Sequence record: OQ689734.1
DNA: 64,000 bases
Direction: 5' to 3' (one strand)
Origin: Escherichia phage 4E8
Made by a program: the position numbers and the translations under genes. Below the pieces are notes generated by a model. It saw only the letters and a program-made list of their open reading frames with translations. It was not told where the DNA came from and searched no databases. Position 1 is the first letter of the stretch, and each line of letters opens with the position of its first letter. This document shows positions 2,958-63,222 of this stretch, piece by piece.

Positions 2958-3176
2958 ATGAAAATGATGAAACAAATTAGTTATGGGTTAGCTTGTGTTG
3001 CTACCGGTTTTGCTGTGTCAGTGGCTGTCCCTGTTAATGCAGTGCACCCCCTGGTCACGCAACCTGCACCAATCGAGAAGTTAAGTGCATCTTGTAAGCA
3101 GCGTACAATTCAGAATAACCTTGTGGTTATCTGTCCGGACTCTGATTCTAGTGCTCTGAGAAACATGCTTCAGTAA
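2958..3176 (+). CDS. small secreted or membrane-anchored protein (possible holin-like partner of endolysin)
   Basis: RBS GGAGA; N-terminal hydrophobic segment ISYGLACVATGFAVSVAVPVNA; immediately upstream of lysozyme. Confidence 0.5.
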   Translation: MKMMKQISYGLACVATGFAVSVAVPVNAVHPLVTQPAPIEKLSASCKQRTIQNNLVVICPDSDSSALRNMLQ

Positions 3177-3206: not shown

Positions 3207-3698
3207 ATGGATAATGTCGCATTGCCACCGATACAACTGAGCTTAAGCCCAGACGGGATGGAATTCATCATGAAGCATGAAGGTATGAGAACTCGTGCTT
3301 ACCAAGATTCCGCAGGTATCTGGACGATATGTGTTGGGGCTACGCGCGATATGAATGGGTATCCAGTAAGACAAGGATTAACGTATTCTATAGAGGATTG
3401 TCTAGCTCTGCTAGATAGAGACACACAAGACTCTGTTCGTGCTACTCAGAAAAATATAAGAGTTCCTATGTTAGCTCACGAGTTTGATGCTGTCACTTCT
3501 TTCAATTTTAATGTTGGTGGTGGTGCTCTTTCAACCTCAAAACTTAGGAAAGTAATCAACGGGGACGTAAAGGGTGATGTTTATTCAGAGTTCTTACGTT
3601 GGGATAAGATAACTGTTAAGGGTGTAAAACAGCAGAGTCCGGGGCTTCACAATCGTAGGGTTGCAGAAGCAGACCTATACACCACAGGAAAATATTAA
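3207..3698 (+). CDS. endolysin, GH24 lysozyme (T4-lysozyme/lambda R-like)
   Basis: RBS GGGAGG; motif HEGMRTRAYQDSAGIWTICVG matches catalytic Glu / Asp / Thr region of phage lysozymes. Confidence 0.8.
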   Translation: MDNVALPPIQLSLSPDGMEFIMKHEGMRTRAYQDSAGIWTICVGATRDMNGYPVRQGLTYSIEDCLALLDRDTQDSVRATQKNIRVPMLAHEFDAVTSFNFNVGGGALSTSKLRKVINGDVKGDVYSEFLRWDKITVKGVKQQSPGLHNRRVAEADLYTTGKY

Positions 3699-22436: not shown

Positions 22437-22693
22437 TGTATCCCTCTCTCCTTGAGAGCTTTAAGCAAACCATTGTGGTTAGCGGCACAGGTTGTATAAT
22501 TATCCTGATACCACTCAAGTGTTGTTGCAAATGCCACTCCCTGTGCACTCTGAAGTAAAGGGAGGTCTACATCACACTCAGCTTTTAGGTTTGTTGGTAA
22601 GGGCACTAGCTGCCTGCTGTTGTCGCTCATTGAACAAGCTGACATACTCATCGCTAGCACACACATTGTAAAAAACTGGCTTAGTCTTTTCAT
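22433..22693 (-). CDS. o-spanin (outer-membrane lipoprotein, Rz1-like)
   Basis: signal peptide ending in lipobox-like AMSMSAC; Pro-rich; start embedded in 3' end of the i-spanin gene in another frame. Confidence 0.55.
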   Translation of the reverse strand: MKRLSQFFTMCVLAMSMSACSMSDNSRQLVPLPTNLKAECDVDLPLLQSAQGVAFATTLEWYQDNYTTCAANHNGLLKALKERGIQ

Positions 22694-22925
22694 AATGCAT
22701 CTCTTTGTAAACAGTTTCCGTGTTCTTCTTCCAGTTTGATAAACCAGTTAGAACTTTCTGAGCCACTTCATCAGCAGCCTTAGCTCTCTCAATCTCAATC
22801 TCTTGCTGTTTCTTCTCTTGGTCAAGAGCATTGCTGTCATTTCGATATTGCTCAAACTTGACACCACCAAAGAAAACCAGAGCTGTGAAGATTAAAAAAC
22901 CTATATTGTTTTGAAGCTTTTCCAT
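22578..22925 (-). CDS. i-spanin (Rz-like)
   Basis: N-terminal TM helix IGFLIFTALVFFGG then coiled coil; start at MEKLQ with GGAG RBS (longer track ORF would run into the terminator). Confidence 0.55.
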   Translation of the reverse strand: MEKLQNNIGFLIFTALVFFGGVKFEQYRNDSNALDQEKKQQEIEIERAKAADEVAQKVLTGLSNWKKNTETVYKEMHYEKTKPVFYNVCASDEYVSLFNERQQQAASALTNKPKS

Positions 22926-22934
22926 TTTAACTCC

Positions 22935-22961
22935 AACGAAAAAAGCCACCCGAAGGTGGCT
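22935..22961 (-). terminator. rho-independent terminator (minus strand)
   Basis: agccacc-ttcg-ggtggct hairpin followed by TTTTTTCG on minus strand, downstream of SSB gene. Confidence 0.6.
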
Positions 22962-30560: not shown

Positions 30561-30571
30561 AGTATACATTA
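30561..30571 (-). promoter_or_regulatory. TAATGTATACT promoter-like motif (minus strand)
   Basis: ~30 nt upstream of the 30530 start. Confidence 0.3.
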
Positions 30572-33334: not shown

Positions 33335-33550
33335 TTAGTAATGAATCTTTTTATAAACCATGTTGCTTCCACTTTCTGTTTCAATCCCTTTCTGGATTGT
33401 AATCTTAGAAGCACCAGTGTTAACAATTTTTAAAGCTCGCTTAAAGCGGCGAGCCTCTTTCCGTGTGGAGTATGTTGAGAAGCTAGGGATTGTGCTATCA
33501 AAATTAAACCACTTAACTACCCAAAAAGTAATCCAAGGTTTCTTTTCCAT
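33335..33550 (-). CDS. small protein, RKEAR-family paralog 1
   Basis: STRKEARRFKR and C-terminal KKIHY shared with three paralogs at 35417-36038. Confidence 0.5.
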   Translation of the reverse strand: MEKKPWITFWVVKWFNFDSTIPSFSTYSTRKEARRFKRALKIVNTGASKITIQKGIETESGSNMVYKKIHY

Positions 33551-33551
33551 A

Positions 33552-33827
33552 TTAAATACCTTTCAGAGCCGTGTCTAAAAATGCACGGAGATTAGATTCA
33601 GTTTGCATACCTGATAAACTATAATGAGCACCACTATTCTTATCAGGTACGACAAAGGCTGGGATACTGCGAACACCATATTCAATGGCTCGCTCTCGAC
33701 CATCACCTTCAGAGATATTTACTTCTTCAACTTCTACACTGTAGTCAGCCACAACCTTCTTAAACACAGGAGCCATAGCTGCACATGGAGCACAGGAATT
33801 ACTATAAAACTTAATTACTTTACTCAT
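33552..33827 (-). CDS. thioredoxin-fold protein
   Basis: FYSNSCAPCAAMAPVF CxxC active site; ATG with AAGGAA RBS (track ORF begins at upstream TTG). Confidence 0.65.
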   Translation of the reverse strand: MSKVIKFYSNSCAPCAAMAPVFKKVVADYSVEVEEVNISEGDGRERAIEYGVRSIPAFVVPDKNSGAHYSLSGMQTESNLRAFLDTALKGI

Positions 33828-33828
33828 T

Positions 33829-34005
33829 CTATTCCTTGTTAATAAACAGATTGATATGACGCTGGGTAGCAGGAACAACAATAAAAGATTTATACTGACC
33901 TTTTGCTAAGTCATGAGCAATCTTCTTTGTCTGACCAAGACCCATCACACAGCCACTAACGATAATGGCATGTGCTTGTAATTCTTCAGGTAGGTTTAGT
34001 TTCAC
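33829..34005 (-). CDS. small hypothetical protein (58 aa, GTG start)
   Basis: sub-threshold ORF with AAGGAA RBS; fills gap between membrane-protein gene and thioredoxin. Confidence 0.3.
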   Translation of the reverse strand: MKLNLPEELQAHAIIVSGCVMGLGQTKKIAHDLAKGQYKSFIVVPATQRHINLFINKE

Positions 34006-34017
34006 TCTTTGGGTTCC

Positions 34018-34203
34018 TTATAGCATACAAAGAATAATAACAAGAGGTAGTGTTATAGCAAAATGTACCAGAACAACACTACCAAGCTTGATAGCTTTAA
34101 CATCCTCTTCTGCTGGGTTTTCTTTAATTGCTAAATTTCGAGCTTTATATATAACAGTACCAACTATTAATGACCACACGGCCCACACAATCAGTGAAAT
34201 CAT
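34018..34203 (-). CDS. small two-TM membrane protein, tandem paralog a
   Basis: IVWAVWSLIVG...KENP...IKLGS pattern shared with the next gene. Confidence 0.5.
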   Translation of the reverse strand: MISLIVWAVWSLIVGTVIYKARNLAIKENPAEEDVKAIKLGSVVLVHFAITLPLVIILCML

Positions 34204-34212
34204 ATCAAACCC

Positions 34213-34434
34213 TTATGCAGTCAACAGGTGGAGAAGGAAAGGAATGACAACAGAGAAAACTACCAGAGCAATGCTACCATGTTTAATAGGTTTAGCATCA
34301 TTCGGATTCTCTTTAAGCATCTGTTTCTGAGCCAGATAAACGATACCACCAACAAGAATTGCCCACACAGACCATACGATTGCTGAAAACATATTCATAT
34401 CCTTATAAAGAAGTTCGCCCCACCTCTTAAACAA
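34213..34434 (-). CDS. small two-TM membrane protein, tandem paralog b
   Basis: IVWSVWAILVG...KENP...IKHGS. Confidence 0.5.
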   Translation of the reverse strand: MFKRWGELLYKDMNMFSAIVWSVWAILVGGIVYLAQKQMLKENPNDAKPIKHGSIALVVFSVVIPFLLHLLTA

Positions 34435-34455
34435 AGAGACAGGGCGGAGGTTTGA

Positions 34456-35031
34456 TTAGTAAGACACATCACCACTGGAGTGGGACATGTTGCTCTTGAC
34501 GAAGTAACAGAACTTGCCAAGACCTTCATTGATTTCTTGAAGCATACTCTGATCAACTGGATAGGTGCACAAGTCTGAATCAAACTCGTCCATCTTCTCA
34601 ATGATACACATAAGAGTCATGCACATGTCGGAAAGCATGCCGTCCATGTCGAGATCAGCGTTACCTTCTCGGAACCAAGCATGACCTAAATAATTACTAG
34701 CAGTAGCATCCACTTTAACACAATGAAAGCGCATACGCTCTGCTATTCGGTCGCCTGCCTCACGAGCATAATCTTCTAGTTCATCGAACATACCATGAAC
34801 ACCTTGGAAACCAGCTCCAGAGACGTTCCAGTGGTAGTTCTTTGCTTTGATGTGTAGAAGTTCAAGATTAGCTTGCACACCACACAAGATGTGTTCTAAG
34901 CTGTTACCGCTAATCAGTTTATTCATTCCCTCAAGACGAGAGATAGAAGAGTCAGCAGTAGAGAATGGGTTGCTAGAACCCACTCGTGTTAGTTCTGGTA
35001 AGTCGAAGACATTATTATGCATTAGGTGCAT
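34456..35031 (-). CDS. Dps/ferritin-like protein
   Basis: LHIKAKNYHWNVSGAGFQGVHGMFDE...DRIAERM matches the Dps ferroxidase-centre helix pattern. Confidence 0.6.
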   Translation of the reverse strand: MHLMHNNVFDLPELTRVGSSNPFSTADSSISRLEGMNKLISGNSLEHILCGVQANLELLHIKAKNYHWNVSGAGFQGVHGMFDELEDYAREAGDRIAERMRFHCVKVDATASNYLGHAWFREGNADLDMDGMLSDMCMTLMCIIEKMDEFDSDLCTYPVDQSMLQEINEGLGKFCYFVKSNMSHSSGDVSY

Positions 35032-35381: not shown

Positions 35382-35392
35382 TATATACATTT
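35382..35392 (-). promoter_or_regulatory. AAATGTATATA promoter-like motif (minus strand)
   Basis: one mismatch from TAATGTATATA; ~38 nt upstream of the 35344 start. Confidence 0.3.
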
Positions 35393-35416
35393 GAGAGTGA
35401 TCATATCTACTACCAA

Positions 35417-35626
35417 TCAGTAGTAAATTACTTTAGACATAAAAGAACCAGTGTTAGGGTCTTCATACCAGCGATGTATGTCAGCGCTTTTTACTATTGT
35501 GCCCAGAATCTTCAACTGTTTCTTAGCAATACGAGCCTCTTTGCGAGTGTCAAACAATTTGATGCTATCTTTTCTCGTGTGTTGATCAAGATCCCAAACA
35601 ACACGAATCGCCCACATCTTTTTCAT
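35417..35626 (-). CDS. small protein, RKEAR-family paralog 2
   Basis: DTRKEARIAKK ... SKVIYY. Confidence 0.5.
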   Translation of the reverse strand: MKKMWAIRVVWDLDQHTRKDSIKLFDTRKEARIAKKQLKILGTIVKSADIHRWYEDPNTGSFMSKVIYY

Positions 35627-35841
35627 TAGTAGTGCACCTTTCCGCTGATATAAATACGGCCTGAGGTATACTCATAGCCCTTGAGAATCTTAACAGAGGT
35701 AGTGGAGCCATCGTTTAGTGCACAGATTGACTTCTTAAGATTGCGTGCATCTTCTCGTGTCTTCTGGTAGGTCATGGTCACACCCCCACTCTTCCACTCT
35801 GTTTTAACTAACCAAACTATTTTCATAAGACCTGCTCTCAT
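35626..35841 (-). CDS. small protein, RKEAR-family paralog 3
   Basis: KTREDARNLKK ... SGKVHY; start/stop overlap with neighbours. Confidence 0.5.
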   Translation of the reverse strand: MRAGLMKIVWLVKTEWKSGGVTMTYQKTREDARNLKKSICALNDGSTTSVKILKGYEYTSGRIYISGKVHY

Positions 35842-36038
35842 TAGTAGTACACCTTGCTTCCAGCCATGAACGCCCCTGTCGAGCTTATCATGGCTTTGCT
35901 GATAGTAACTTTCTTACACCGTAAACATACCTTCCAATTCTTTTTACAGATTCGAGCTTCTTGTCGAGTGTTACAAAAAATAGCCGAAGATATTTCTTGA
36001 GTGTTGTTGTCATAAACACGAACACACCACTTTTTCAT
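35841..36038 (-). CDS. small protein, RKEAR-family paralog 4
   Basis: NTRQEARICKK ... GSKVYY. Confidence 0.5.
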   Translation of the reverse strand: MKKWCVRVYDNNTQEISSAIFCNTRQEARICKKNWKVCLRCKKVTISKAMISSTGAFMAGSKVYY

Positions 36039-41174: not shown

Positions 41175-41372
41175 TTACCTTTTGTTTAAAATTTCTTTTG
41201 TACAAGAAGTCCCGTTACACACGAGAACTGTTTGAGTTATAGAATCGACAACTGTTACATGGCTGCCGCATTGAGTTATGATTTGACCTCTCCCTGAATC
41301 TTTAGAGATGCATTCATCAGCGGCGATCGCTGACACACTGAATAAGGAGAGGAAAAATAGAATCTTTTTCAT
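41175..41372 (-). CDS. small secreted Cys-rich protein
   Basis: signal peptide MKKILFFLSLFSVSAIA; six Cys in mature part. Confidence 0.5.
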   Translation of the reverse strand: MKKILFFLSLFSVSAIAADECISKDSGRGQIITQCGSHVTVVDSITQTVLVCNGTSCTKEILNKR

Positions 41373-56430: not shown

Positions 56431-56680
56431 CTTTAACCTCGATGTTAGTTATGTGAAGATCACTGCGTACTTGGCAAACTTCATCCCGTTTAAAAGGCAT
56501 GAGCTTTCCAGTTACCACATCAACACAGTTGACATAATTGTCTGCGTACAATGAGTCGGTTCTAATGTAAAGGGACTCTTTACGCTCAAATAGAACCCCC
56601 GGCTTTATATTATTTAAGCGAAGCATTGTACGGTTAGATTTAATATTAACCTTCACTGTTGATCTCCTGTTGCTTGGCAA
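56420..56680 (-). CDS. small protein, GDVF-family paralog F
   Basis: IKPGVLF...LYIRT...VNCVDVVTGKLMPF; real start probably an internal GTG/ATG (track ORF overlaps upstream gene). Confidence 0.45.
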   Translation of the reverse strand: MPSNRRSTVKVNIKSNRTMLRLNNIKPGVLFERKESLYIRTDSLYADNYVNCVDVVTGKLMPFKRDEVCQVRSDLHITNIEVKDED

Positions 56681-56951
56681 TAGCTACTTGCAAGTCTTCA
56701 TTAGCACGAGCAAGGCGTTTAACTTCATGATCAAGGCTGATAAGGCGCTTATTTCTGTCTTCAACCTGTTCAACCAGATCAAAAAGCTTAACTCTCACCT
56801 TTTCTGTATACATCTCCTCTACTTTAACCAGACTGTTATAGCGACGTTCCCAGCTGGCTGCTTTGTTTCTTAGGATAATAAAACCCAACACAGCAACAGT
56901 TAACAGCAATACAAGTAAGAATTTATATACTTCAATACTCATCTTATTCAC
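56646..56951 (-). CDS. TM-anchored coiled-coil protein (FtsB/spanin-like topology)
   Basis: N-terminal TM helix FLLVLLLTVAVLGFIIL followed by heptad-rich helical region. Confidence 0.5.
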   Translation of the reverse strand: MNKMSIEVYKFLLVLLLTVAVLGFIILRNKAASWERRYNSLVKVEEMYTEKVRVKLFDLVEQVEDRNKRLISLDHEVKRLARANEDLQVAIAKQQEINSEG

Positions 56952-61724: not shown

Positions 61725-62102
61725 CTATGGATTTGCACATTGACCATTACCGGATGCTATTTCATTCATTGACTCATCAAACAAGGTTAGGGATGAGCGC
61801 ATCAGATGATCAATCATGACTTGTTTACCAGTGGTTTCATTTACCAGTTGAATAGTTTTATCATATGATTGTACATGATCGAAATCATTTACATGTAAAA
61901 TAATAACCTTAGGTGACTGTTTACCGGTATCATAATTTTCTATAAGATAGGTACATTGCAAGCCTTCGATAGTCTTAGGCGTGAATGTTGCAGCCTTAAC
62001 ACTACCTATAGACGATAGGAGAACGCCCAGCAGGAGAACGACAAGGAAAAAGCCCACGAATACTTTTACTACAAATTTGATAATACCCATGATAATAATC
62101 AC
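61725..62102 (-). CDS. membrane-anchored hypothetical protein
   Basis: N-terminal TM segment FVGFFLVVLLLGVLL. Confidence 0.5.
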   Translation of the reverse strand: MIIIMGIIKFVVKVFVGFFLVVLLLGVLLSSIGSVKAATFTPKTIEGLQCTYLIENYDTGKQSPKVIILHVNDFDHVQSYDKTIQLVNETTGKQVMIDHLMRSSLTLFDESMNEIASGNGQCANP

Positions 62103-62730: not shown

Positions 62731-63222
62731 TTACTTACTAGCCTTAATGCAGTTGGCTAAATTAACGTGAACGGTATAAACAGCGTTATCAGCGTTATTG
62801 TAAACAGTAGTCGCAATCATCGACTGATTAACCGGGCCATAACTCACTAGATTGGTTACAGCTTTAACGTCTTCGTAACGTTGTACAGTGCCAAATGTAA
62901 CCATATCCGCATCGTTATCAGTACGCTTGAGAACTAGATCACTGTTAGGCTGATTGTCTAGTGTTTTGGTACTAACGACCAGACCATCACGGGAAACGTT
63001 ACTAAATTTAACCTTTAAAACGACTTGATTGGTGTCACTATCCGCACCGTTGCAAATCATCCAACCCTTATCAATGGAACTAGCGAAAACGTCAGCGGCA
63101 TTAGTTGCAGGAGCAGGACTAGCGATAGCCTTATCAGAAAAAGAAGTTACCAGTGCACTGACACCGATGACTGTAACCAGCGCATAACTTGCCAGATTAA
63201 CAACCTGCATCACTTTCGCCAT
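62731..63222 (-). CDS. secreted/periplasmic hypothetical protein
   Basis: signal-peptide-like N-terminus YALVTVIGVSALVTSFS...AIASPA. Confidence 0.55.
   Translation of the reverse strand: MAKVMQVVNLASYALVTVIGVSALVTSFSDKAIASPAPATNAADVFASSIDKGWMICNGADSDTNQVVLKVKFSNVSRDGLVVSTKTLDNQPNSDLVLKRTDNDADMVTFGTVQRYEDVKAVTNLVSYGPVNQSMIATTVYNNADNAVYTVHVNLANCIKASK

What the first reader, a model, noticed from the sequence alone, without database searches (positions are those of the whole stretch)
34018..34434. Tandem duplicated two-TM membrane proteins
Adjacent 61- and 73-aa ORFs share IVW-x-VW-x2-LVG...KENP...IK-x-GS and two hydrophobic helices. Small duplicated membrane proteins in phages are often holins/antiholins or superinfection-exclusion factors.
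Basis: seen in the sequence. Interest (0 to 1): 0.4.

Follow-up and report, generated by a model that had tools for sequence, protein, structure and literature searches.

The report
Paired small phage membrane hairpin proteins
Two neighbouring genes of a phiEco32-like E. coli phage encode related 60-residue proteins that each fold into a two-helix membrane hairpin; they are real, conserved genes of unknown function, and they are very unlikely to be the phage's holin.

Summary
The minus strand carries two paralogous genes: A (34018..34203, 61 aa) and B (34213..34392, 59 aa, not 73). They are 45% identical (E 3e-17; 0 of 5000 shuffles reach the score). Each has two hydrophobic helices around a charged loop, and AlphaFold models both as helical hairpins (pLDDT 92).

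The window is a Gordonclarkvirinae coliphage. Both proteins belong to an orphan family (phrog_9296, phiEco32 gp66) found almost only in this subfamily.

- **Resident gene:** the copy next to the Dps-like gene is in all 97 matching records. It occurs as two deeply diverged alleles.
- **Optional paralogue:** A is old (58% nucleotide identity to B). It travels with a 58-aa ORF as a mobile cassette and is present in 44 of 97 records.
- **Expression:** both lie in the middle, nucleotide-metabolism operon, behind a conserved RNA hairpin.
- **Lysis genes elsewhere:** a holin-type gene with an MKMMK start sits beside a soluble endolysin 31 kb away.
- **Holin features missing:** A and B have no charged C-terminal tail and match no holin profile.

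The holin/antiholin reading is therefore not supported. Superinfection exclusion, or another role based on binding within the membrane, fits the evolutionary pattern but is untested. This is an ordinary, uncharacterised accessory family of modest interest.

The parts
34213..34392 (-). Gene B: 59-aa two-helix membrane hairpin protein. It is the resident 'position-1' gene immediately downstream of the Dps-like gene, a positional orthologue of phiEco32 phi32_66, here as the KENP-loop allele.
   Evidence: phrog_9296, E 3.9e-32; pLDDT 91.9. dN/dS within the allele is 0.07-0.32.
34018..34203 (-). Gene A: 61-aa paralogous membrane hairpin protein. It is optional, present in 44 of 97 Gordonclarkvirinae records. 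Its AAGGG Shine-Dalgarno sequence overlaps B's stop codon, and its start is 9 nt after that stop.
   Evidence: phrog_9296, E 2.3e-30; pLDDT 92.1. dN/dS is 0.22-0.48.
34416..34446 (-). Conserved RNA hairpin between the Dps stop and gene B. The core stem is 11 bp, CGCCCUGUCUC/GAGGUGGGGCG, with three G.U pairs, so it forms only on the mRNA strand. A weak U-tract follows. It is probably a partial terminator, attenuator or mRNA-stability element.
   Evidence: terminator-like, 13 pairs; stem invariant, loop variable in 10 phages; two compensatory pairs in the divergent metagenome relative L012.
34400..34404 (-). Shine-Dalgarno AAGGA of gene B. It is predicted to pair with the last Dps codons (GUGUCUU, about 34461..34467) across the base of the hairpin, which could couple B translation to Dps translation.
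   Evidence: The outer helix is kept in the isolates but broken in L012. This is inference only.
33829..34005 (-). 58-aa soluble ORF (phrog_19504, unknown function) that forms one recombination block with gene A.
   Evidence: In one search, A and orf58 are 99% identical to phage MN05 while the flanks are 62-82%. orf58 occurs without A in E20-1 and MLP3.
35384..35392 (-). AAATGTATA, a one-mismatch match to the phiEco32 gp36-sigma promoter element tAATGTAtA, 40 nt upstream of the gp68-like gene. It is the likely middle promoter of the operon gp68-like, Dps, B, A, orf58, Trx, orf71, ThyX. A sigma-70-like site overlaps at 35427..35400.
   Evidence: Consensus and middle-gene assignment come from PMC8948821 and PMC4281155.

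Best explanation
A and B are two paralogous inner-membrane helical-hairpin proteins of about 60 aa from an orphan family (phrog_9296, phiEco32 gp66).

Shown:
- Each is two long helices joined by a tight turn at the conserved (K/E)E(N/T)P motif. The outer 19 residues of each helix are hydrophobic and the central ~22 residues are highly charged.
- B is the resident gene, found in all 97 matching Gordonclarkvirinae records, always between the Dps-like and thioredoxin genes. It occurs as deeply diverged alleles that recombination swaps between otherwise similar genomes.
- A is an old paralogue carried with a 58-aa ORF on a mobile two-gene cassette.
- All types are under purifying selection.
- The genes lie in the middle (nucleotide-metabolism) operon, downstream of a conserved RNA hairpin.

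Inferred:
- Topology is N-out/C-out with the charged tip in the cytoplasm, because 3-5 Lys/Arg lie in the loop and none at the termini. Almost nothing would then be exposed to the periplasm.
- The hairpin RNA lowers their expression relative to Dps.
- They act inside the membrane through helix-helix contacts, using the invariant S3, W7, W10, G15 and Y19 of TM1 and the Pro of TM2. They would work as small binders or modulators of a membrane partner, not as lysis pores.
- The role that best fits the allelic diversity and the optional extra paralogue is an antagonistic one. Examples are blocking genome entry of superinfecting relatives at the inner membrane (working like T4 Imm) or neutralising a membrane-acting host defence. 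Under this reading, A adds a second specificity.
For: - **Homology and fold:**
- **Family restriction:** 18 clusters among 5.8 billion proteins. Six representatives, one of them repetitive junk, among 1.84 billion. 97 phage records, all Escherichia or Shigella Gordonclarkvirinae.
- **Record counts:** 23 records carry the B allele (17 with A, 6 without). 74 carry the phi66 allele (27 with A, 47 without). Examples of each combination were read directly.
- **Mosaicism:** A plus orf58 is 99% identical to MN05 while the flanks are 62-82%. Bas86 has a 98%-identical Dps gene but the other position-1 allele, 67%.
- **Faster divergence than neighbours:** in metagenome relative L012, dCTP deaminase is 90%, gp68 89%, PhoH 81%, ThyX 70% and Dps 69% identical, but the hairpin protein only 38%.
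- **TM helices more conserved than the loop:** B versus phi66 is 12/19 and 13/19 in the helices against 5/21 in the loop.
- **Purifying selection within types**.
- **Middle operon and promoter motif:**
- **A holin-type gene, a soluble endolysin and an i-spanin lie elsewhere in the window:**
- **Precedent:** genus-restricted small hydrophobic phage peptides bind host inner-membrane proteins, for example the Pbunavirus YIP peptides that bind YfiN (PMC8085984).
Against: - No experiment and no homologue of known function exists. The functional part is inference from architecture and evolutionary pattern only.
- A universally retained gene is not what one expects of a purely accessory exclusion factor.
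- With N-out/C-out topology nothing protrudes into the periplasm, so contact with an incoming ejection apparatus would have to occur within the bilayer.
- The fast-evolving loop could reflect weak constraint rather than diversifying selection.
- Synteny with Dps, thioredoxin and ThyX is conserved and could point to a metabolic link instead.
- The early region of the window encodes several secreted or lipoprotein candidates that are at least as good a priori candidates for exclusion.
Confidence: 0.4

Rival explanations
1. Holin, antiholin or lysis-timing regulator. The hairpins accumulate in the inner membrane and either form the lethal holes that release the endolysin, or bind and retard the true holin.
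For: They are small two-TMD proteins. Lysis genes are dispersed in this phage family: the Rz-like i-spanin at 22578..22949(-) also lies in the minus-strand cluster, far from the endolysin. 'Not adjacent to the endolysin' is therefore weak evidence. The annotated holin is unvalidated as far as I could find, and its single weakly hydrophobic TMD ending in VNA also resembles a signal peptide.
Against: A holin-family gene with an MKMMK dual-start-like beginning lies immediately upstream of the endolysin, in the late cluster. A and B have no charged C-terminal cytoplasmic tail, since both end inside TM2. They match no holin family in Pfam or PHROGs at E <= 1. They are in the middle operon. A is absent from 53 of 97 records. 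The endolysin has no SAR domain, so a two-TMD pinholin would not suffice.
Confidence: 0.1
2. Self-assembling ion-leak channel (viroporin-like). Homo- or hetero-oligomers of the hairpins partly depolarise or permeabilise the inner membrane in mid-infection, to shut down host functions or to block pmf-dependent entry of other phages.
For: The TM helices are the best-conserved part and include small or polar residues (S3, G15/G16, T/S and His in TM2) and a conserved Pro kink. The nearest structural analogues are ring-forming hairpins, the ATP-synthase c subunits, at TM 0.75-0.79. Expression appears to be attenuated by an upstream hairpin, as expected for a toxic product.
Against: The fold matches are statistically insignificant (E >= 0.5) and generic to any TM hairpin. 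There is no clearly amphipathic helix and no conserved membrane-embedded charge. Oligomer modelling was not possible.
Confidence: 0.15
3. Membrane tether or adaptor for the neighbouring nucleotide-metabolism or DNA-protection proteins (Dps-like ferritin, thioredoxin, ThyX). The cytoplasmic helical tip docks one of them at the membrane.
For: The order Dps, hairpin protein, thioredoxin, ThyX is kept in every Gordonclarkvirinae locus read. It is also kept in divergent metagenome contigs where the thioredoxin itself is only 14% identical. The SD of B is possibly coupled to Dps translation. The polar tip is the only part accessible to soluble proteins.
Against: The loop is the least conserved part (5/21 between alleles), while Dps is 84% identical at protein level between those same allele groups. 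This argues against a specific docking surface. Grimontviridae phages have Dps and thioredoxin, and SE131 also ThyX, without any such membrane protein. Gene order in phage middle regions is weak functional evidence.
Confidence: 0.1
4. Functionless or decaying ORFs that persist by hitch-hiking.
For: A is dispensable in many genomes. One record (HC-25922) has a 1-nt homopolymer insertion that frameshifts B. dN/dS for A reaches 0.48 on few substitutions.
Against: Reading frames are intact and lengths conserved in all the other records examined. dN/dS is 0.0-0.3 within the resident alleles. Invariant residues are kept across four diverged types. Shine-Dalgarno sequences are conserved. The HC-25922 frameshift lies in a T-run and may be a sequencing error.
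Confidence: 0.05

Closest known systems
phiEco32 gp66 (phi32_66) / PHROG family phrog_9296, annotated 'hypothetical protein'
   Same: True homologues. B is its positional orthologue, lying between Dps (phi32_67) and thioredoxin (phi32_65). It has the same 59-aa length, TM1 WxxW...G...Y motif and C-terminal VVIPFLLHLLTA.
   Different: phiEco32 has a single copy with an EETP-type loop. The window has the KENP-type allele plus the extra paralogue A and orf58. No function is known for any member.
T4 Imm (superinfection immunity protein)
   Same: A small inner-membrane protein made before the late phase by a virulent coliphage. It blocks DNA transfer of superinfecting phage at the inner membrane (review PMC10002423). 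Its size and two-TMD prediction are from my own knowledge. This is the model for how A and B might work.
   Different: There is no sequence relationship: no Pfam or PHROG hit other than phrog_9296. No exclusion phenotype has been tested. A and B expose essentially nothing to the periplasm.
Class II holins / pinholins (e.g. phage 21 S21 68; T7 gp17.5)
   Same: About 60-70 aa with two TMDs.
   Different: Holins carry a charged cytoplasmic C-terminal tail and are late genes, usually beside the endolysin. Pinholins work with SAR endolysins. Here there is no tail, the genes are in the middle operon, the endolysin is soluble, and a separate holin-type gene lies next to it.
F-type ATP synthase c subunit (structural analogue only)
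   Same: A helical hairpin of similar length with a Pro-containing polar turn and both termini on the same side. The best Foldseek matches are 4cbj_A and 2x2v_A, TM 0.78-0.79, rmsd 1.9.
   Different: E-values are 0.5 or higher, so not significant. There is no Pfam ATP-synt_C hit, no GxGxGxG motif and no membrane-embedded carboxylate in helix 2. The resemblance is the generic TM-hairpin fold.
Pbunavirus YIP peptides and bacterial small membrane regulators (AcrZ, MgtS and similar)
   Same: Genus-restricted small hydrophobic proteins that act by binding larger inner-membrane proteins (PMC8085984; review PMC12648545, listed).
   Different: They are unrelated in sequence. The YIPs are 3.6 kDa early-gene products. 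No partner is known for A or B.

Membership tests
phrog_9296 / phiEco32 gp66 family | Full-length match to the family profile | tested here: met
   A: E 2.3e-30 over 1-61. B: E 3.9e-32 over the full profile, 1-59/59. Reciprocal hits appear.
phrog_9296 / phiEco32 gp66 family | Position between the Dps-like and thioredoxin genes | tested here: met
Holins (general criteria: Wang, Smith & Young 2000, cited from my own knowledge) | Small protein with at least one TMD | tested here: met
   Two hydrophobic segments with KD above 2. Hairpin models.
Holins (general criteria) | Hydrophilic, highly charged C-terminal cytoplasmic domain | tested here: not met
   The last charged residue is K39 in A and K37 in B. 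Both proteins end inside TM2.
Holins (general criteria) | Late gene, usually adjacent to the endolysin | tested here: not met
   The endolysin is at 3207..3698(+) with a holin-family gene at 2958..3176(+). A and B are in the minus-strand middle operon. Caveat: the i-spanin is also dispersed.
Holins (general criteria) | Match to a described holin family profile | tested here: not met
   No holin family in Pfam-A or PHROGs at E <= 1. BLOSUM local score against the window's own holin is 18-21, at background level.
Holins (general criteria) | Dual-start motif | tested here: not met
   Window B can be read as M-N-M, but the first codon is GTG in KBNP1711, ECBP2 and E20-1 and absent in phiEco32-type sequences. 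No charged residue lies between the two starts.
Holins (general criteria) | Triggered, lethal membrane hole formation that releases endolysin | not testable with these tools
   Needs expression with CCCP triggering, or lambda Sam7 complementation.
Pinholin / SAR-endolysin systems | Partner endolysin with an N-terminal SAR (signal-anchor-release) domain | tested here: not met
   The endolysin N-terminus MDNVALPPIQLSLSPDGMEF has no hydrophobic segment.
T4 Imm-type superinfection immunity | Sequence membership (Pfam Imm_superinfect, name from memory; PHROG immunity families) | tested here: not met
   No Pfam, PHROG, NCBIfam or PADLOC hit apart from phrog_9296.
T4 Imm-type superinfection immunity | Small inner-membrane protein expressed before late genes | tested here: met
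   Expression class is inferred by homology to the phiEco32 and SU10 middle genes.
T4 Imm-type superinfection immunity | Blocks genome entry of superinfecting phage | not testable with these tools
   Needs EOP and DNA-entry assays.
ATP synthase subunit c | Profile match and conserved ion-binding carboxylate in helix 2 | tested here: not met
   No PF00137 hit at E <= 1. There is no Asp or Glu in TM2 of A, B or phi32_66. Fold matches are insignificant.

The most novel reading that the evidence does not exclude
The locus is an allele-specific exclusion or self/non-self system acting inside the membrane. At least three ancient alleles of the resident hairpin protein exist (KENP type, EETP type and the metagenomic KEEG type). 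The mobile paralogue A would supply a further specificity. Each would block genome entry, or another membrane step, of a different set of competing Gordonclarkvirinae, so that phages accumulate and swap cassettes in an inter-phage arms race. A still more radical reading that is also not excluded is that this core hairpin is the real hole-former of these phages, and the annotated 72-aa 'holin' is a secreted regulator.
Probability: 0.15. Interest if true: 0.55.

Novelty: new member of a known kind. Interest (0 to 1): 0.27.

Why it matters
Gordonclarkvirinae are abundant, broad-host-range coliphages that resist many tested defence systems. They are being used therapeutically, and the BASEL paper describes their molecular biology as only poorly studied.

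A core, fast-evolving membrane protein with swappable alleles and an optional paralogue is a reasonable place to look for determinants of phage-phage competition or of host-membrane takeover.

The BASEL isolates already provide natural allele combinations for a simple test. Bas87 and Bas88 carry B plus A. Bas86 carries the phi66 allele plus A. Bas89 and Bas91-94 carry the phi66 allele alone.

As it stands, though, this is one more uncharacterised small phage membrane protein family. The practical result is the correction of the ORF start and the removal of the holin label.

Tried and rejected
- **Known-family searches:** Pfam, NCBIfam, PADLOC and PDB-sequence searches with A, B, phi32_66 or the family profile gave nothing meaningful.
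- **Remote homologues:** an exhaustive HMMER search of 1.84 billion representatives with the family profile found only the family itself, one diverged metagenomic member (P0020) and one repetitive junk protein (P0019).
- **Fold searches:** Foldseek against PDB and BFVD returned only insignificant generic TM hairpins, apart from the family's own member. The c-subunit resemblance was rejected as membership, because there is no carboxylate and no profile hit.
- **Heterodimer model:** I tried to model a B-A bundle by reading through the stop codon.
- **More distant relatives:** I looked for an analogous small two-TM gene next to Dps in Grimontviridae (SE131, GAP52, Proteus 3H10_20, Aeromonas BUCT695). 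None was found; only out-of-frame spurious ORFs turned up.
- **Recent duplication or gene conversion between A and B:** rejected. Nucleotide identity is 58% and the longest identical run is 7 nt.
- **An internal sigma-70-like site inside A (34061..34034):** treated as chance, since 7 sites were found against 8.3 expected.
- **Literature:** searches on phiEco32, Gordonclarkvirinae and small membrane proteins found no study of this gene.
- **Not attempted:** I considered correlating allele type with ejection-protein sequences across genomes. I did not do it, because linkage and phylogeny would confound the result.

Full report
**What the window is.** The region around the finding is 91-97% identical at the DNA level to Escherichia phages of the subfamily Gordonclarkvirinae: vB_EcoP-101114UKE3, IME267, Bas88, KBNP1711, ECBP2 and NC-B. 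These are phiEco32-like C3 podoviruses. Structural and late genes occupy the + strand up to about 18.6 kb. From there on, genes run on the - strand.

**Checking the observation.** Two adjacent minus-strand ORFs exist as described.
- A is 34018..34203 (61 aa).
- B was reported as 73 aa from a TTG at 34434, but the real start is the ATG at 34392 (59 aa). An AAGGA Shine-Dalgarno sequence sits 7 nt upstream. All annotated homologues are 59 aa. The putative 5' extension lies over a conserved RNA hairpin whose loop differs by 2 nt between relatives, which would break a reading frame.
- A and B share 26/58 identities (E 3e-17).
- The local alignment score is 139. Shuffles that keep the composition of each hydrophobic and polar segment give 34.6 +/- 8.6, and none of 5000 reaches the observed score. 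The similarity is therefore homology, not hydrophobic composition.
- Each protein has two 17-19-residue segments with mean hydropathy above 2, and every charged residue lies between them.
- AlphaFold2, run on a 12-sequence family alignment, gives confident hairpins. A has H2-28, a turn at N29-P30-A31 and H32-60, pLDDT 92.1. B has H2-28 and H30-58, pLDDT 91.9.
- In a scan of putative genes of 200 aa or fewer, A and B are the only ones in the 64 kb with two hydrophobic segments.

**Family and distribution.** Both proteins match a single PHROG of unknown function, phrog_9296 (E 2e-30 and 4e-32).
- Nothing meaningful turned up in Pfam, NCBIfam, PADLOC or PDB sequences.
- A profile search found only 18 clusters among 5.8 billion proteins.
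- An exhaustive HMMER scan of 1.84 billion representatives found six. One of these is a repetitive artefact and one is a diverged 56-aa metagenomic member, P0020.
- In the phage collection the family occurs in 97 records, all Escherichia or Shigella Gordonclarkvirinae.
- More distant C3 relatives (Grimontviridae: SE131, GAP52, Proteus 3H10_20, Aeromonas BUCT695) keep Dps and thioredoxin genes; ThyX appears in the SE131 locus only. None has a comparable small membrane gene there.

**Anatomy of the locus across genomes.** The gene directly downstream of the Dps-like gene ('position 1') is present in every one of the 97 matching records. The only defect seen is one homopolymer frameshift, in HC-25922.
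- Position 1 exists as two deeply diverged alleles. The window's B type has a KENP loop (23 records). The phiEco32 gp66 type has an EETP loop (74 records).
- A follows position 1 in 44 records: 17 with the B allele and 27 with the gp66 allele. It is absent from 53 records, 6 with the B allele and 47 with the gp66 allele. The pair is therefore conserved only in part.
- Segment-wise DNA identities show mosaicism. A plus the following 58-aa ORF (33829..34005, phrog_19504) is 99% identical between the window and phage MN05, while the flanking genes are 62-82%. Bas86 has a 98%-identical Dps gene but the other position-1 allele (67%).
- E20-1 and MLP3 lack A precisely. In them, B's stop overlaps the start of orf58 (TAATG).
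- A and B share 58% nucleotide identity and no identical run longer than 7 nt. The paralogy is old and there is no sign of recent gene conversion.
- B looks intermediate. Its helices resemble gp66 (12/19 and 13/19) and its loop resembles A (10/21, against 5/21 to gp66).
- Within each type, substitutions are mostly synonymous. dN/dS is 0.0-0.3 for the position-1 alleles and 0.2-0.5, on few changes, for A. All are therefore maintained coding genes.
- In metagenome contigs L012 and L013 the same order holds: ferritin/Dps, hairpin protein, thioredoxin, ThyX. There the neighbours are 69-90% identical to the window's, but the hairpin protein is only 38% identical to B. The gene diverges much faster than its surroundings. 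Its helices (WxxW, G, Y in TM1; IPF..HL in TM2) are better kept than its loop.

**Expression context.**
- In phiEco32 and SU10 the homologous block (SU10 CDS25-68, including thioredoxin CDS65 and Dps CDS67) is the middle class. It is transcribed from promoters with the single element tAATGTAtA, recognised by the phage sigma factor gp36. A promoter lies upstream of CDS68 (PMC8948821; PMC4281155).
- In the window, AAATGTATA lies at 35384..35392(-), 40 nt upstream of the gp68-like gene. A sigma-70-like site overlaps it.
- Exact copies of the element occur at 30563(-) and 23784(-).
- Between the Dps stop and B lies a strong hairpin (34446..34416). Its stem CGCCCUGUCUC/GAGGUGGGGCG is invariant in ten phages, while the loop varies.
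- Three G.U pairs make the hairpin specific to the mRNA strand. In L012 a different sequence forms a hairpin at the same place, with two compensatory pairs.
- The U-tract after the stem is weak and there is no room for a promoter before B. B and A must therefore be read through, probably at reduced level.
- RNAfold and RNAalifold also pair the last Dps codons with B's Shine-Dalgarno sequence around the base of the hairpin. This suggests translational coupling. That helix is not kept in L012 and remains an inference.

**Is it a holin or antiholin?**
- The window already has a holin-family gene (phrog_11161, E 1.8e-46). It is 72 aa, begins MKMMK and has one TMD and a charged C-terminal part. It sits directly upstream of a Phage_lysozyme endolysin that has no SAR domain. 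An Rz-like i-spanin lies at 22578..22949(-).
- A and B end within TM2 and so lack the charged C-terminal tail typical of holins. They match no holin profile, lie in the middle operon, and have no conserved dual start.
- Two caveats are recorded. Lysis genes are dispersed in this phage family, since the spanin is also in the minus-strand cluster. The annotated holin is unvalidated, and its TMD ending in VNA also resembles a signal peptide.
- I therefore put the lysis reading at about 0.1, not zero.

**What it most likely is.**
- The hairpin model, the 3-5 Lys/Arg in the loop and none at the termini argue for N-out/C-out insertion, with a roughly 22-residue helical tip in the cytoplasm. Practically nothing would be in the periplasm. 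This is inference from the positive-inside rule.
- The helices are more conserved than the soluble tip. That points to specific intramembrane contacts, either self-association or binding of a membrane partner.
- Three features are the pattern expected of genes in antagonistic interactions: anciently diverged alleles shuffled by recombination among near-identical genomes, divergence well above that of neighbours, and an optional mobile paralogue.
- My best-supported, still weakly supported, mechanism is a small intramembrane binder acting in exclusion or defence interplay. It would work like T4 Imm without being related to it, or like the small hydrophobic phage peptides that bind host membrane proteins (PMC8085984).
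- Rivals are an ion-leak oligomer, a tether for Dps, Trx or ThyX, a lysis regulator, and functionless ORFs. Each is listed with its evidence.
- Structural searches only returned generic TM hairpins (ATP-synthase c subunits, HtrII) at insignificant E-values.

**Novelty and verdict.** The genes are already in databases as 'hypothetical protein' and as a PHROG, and no paper found addresses them.
- The ORF length needs correcting.
- The 'duplication' is an old paralogy, with copy A on a mobile cassette.
- The holin idea is not supported.
- Exclusion remains an open, testable guess.
- Interest is modest.

Noticed in passing
window 35417..35626(-), 35626..35841(-), 35841..36038(-) and 33335..33550(-): Four small ORFs of about 65-71 aa look like paralogues. 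They share a T(R/K)(K/E)(E/D)AR..KK motif and a C-terminal (H/Y)Y. Three are in tandem just upstream of the operon and one lies between thioredoxin and ThyX. The last matches phrog_4939, unknown function. Their number varies between related phages.
   Followed up: no
window 34416..34446(-) and 34400..34404 / ~34461..34467(-): A conserved, strand-specific RNA hairpin lies between the Dps-like gene and gene B. A possible outer helix pairs the last Dps codons with B's Shine-Dalgarno sequence. The hairpin is not among the four terminator positions that the SU10 paper's main text describes.
   Followed up: partly
window 2958..3176(+): The annotated holin (phrog_11161) starts MKMMK. It has one weakly hydrophobic Gly/Ala/Ser-rich segment ending in VNA|V, followed by a 45-aa tail with two Cys. 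It could equally be a cleavable signal peptide or a SAR-type anchor. I found no experimental validation.
   Followed up: partly
window 22578..22949(-): The Rz-like i-spanin (phrog_1152) sits in the minus-strand gene cluster near the sigma-factor gene, about 19 kb from the holin and endolysin pair. Lysis genes are therefore dispersed in this phage.
   Followed up: partly
window 53844..54149(-), 41175..41372(-), 51179..51346(-), 56646..56951(-), 61725..62102(-), 62731..63222(-): Several minus-strand ORFs between 41 and 63 kb, outside the 23-36 kb middle block, have N-terminal signal or anchor segments. One has a lipobox-like LTGC (53844..54149) and one is a small Cys-rich secreted protein (41175..41372). 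These are plausible envelope-targeted takeover or exclusion factors.
   Followed up: no
window 33829..34203(-) versus L018 (phage MN05): Gene A plus the 58-aa ORF behave as a single recombination cassette. It is 99% identical between genomes whose flanking genes are 62-82% identical.
   Followed up: yes
L012 4896..5162 versus window 33552..33828(-): In the metagenomic relative, the thioredoxin at the syntenic position is only 14% identical to the window's, while the neighbouring ThyX and Dps are about 70% identical. This suggests non-orthologous replacement of the thioredoxin gene.
   Followed up: no
L022 (phage HC-25922), aligned to window ~34355: A one-base insertion in a T-run frameshifts gene B in this record, and the gene is unannotated there. 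This is either a sequencing error or a natural knock-out.
   Followed up: partly
related records: The Dps-like gene is annotated 'integrase' in several records. The thioredoxin is annotated 'holin' in phage E20-1. Both labels are likely annotation errors that could mislead automated context analysis.
   Followed up: no
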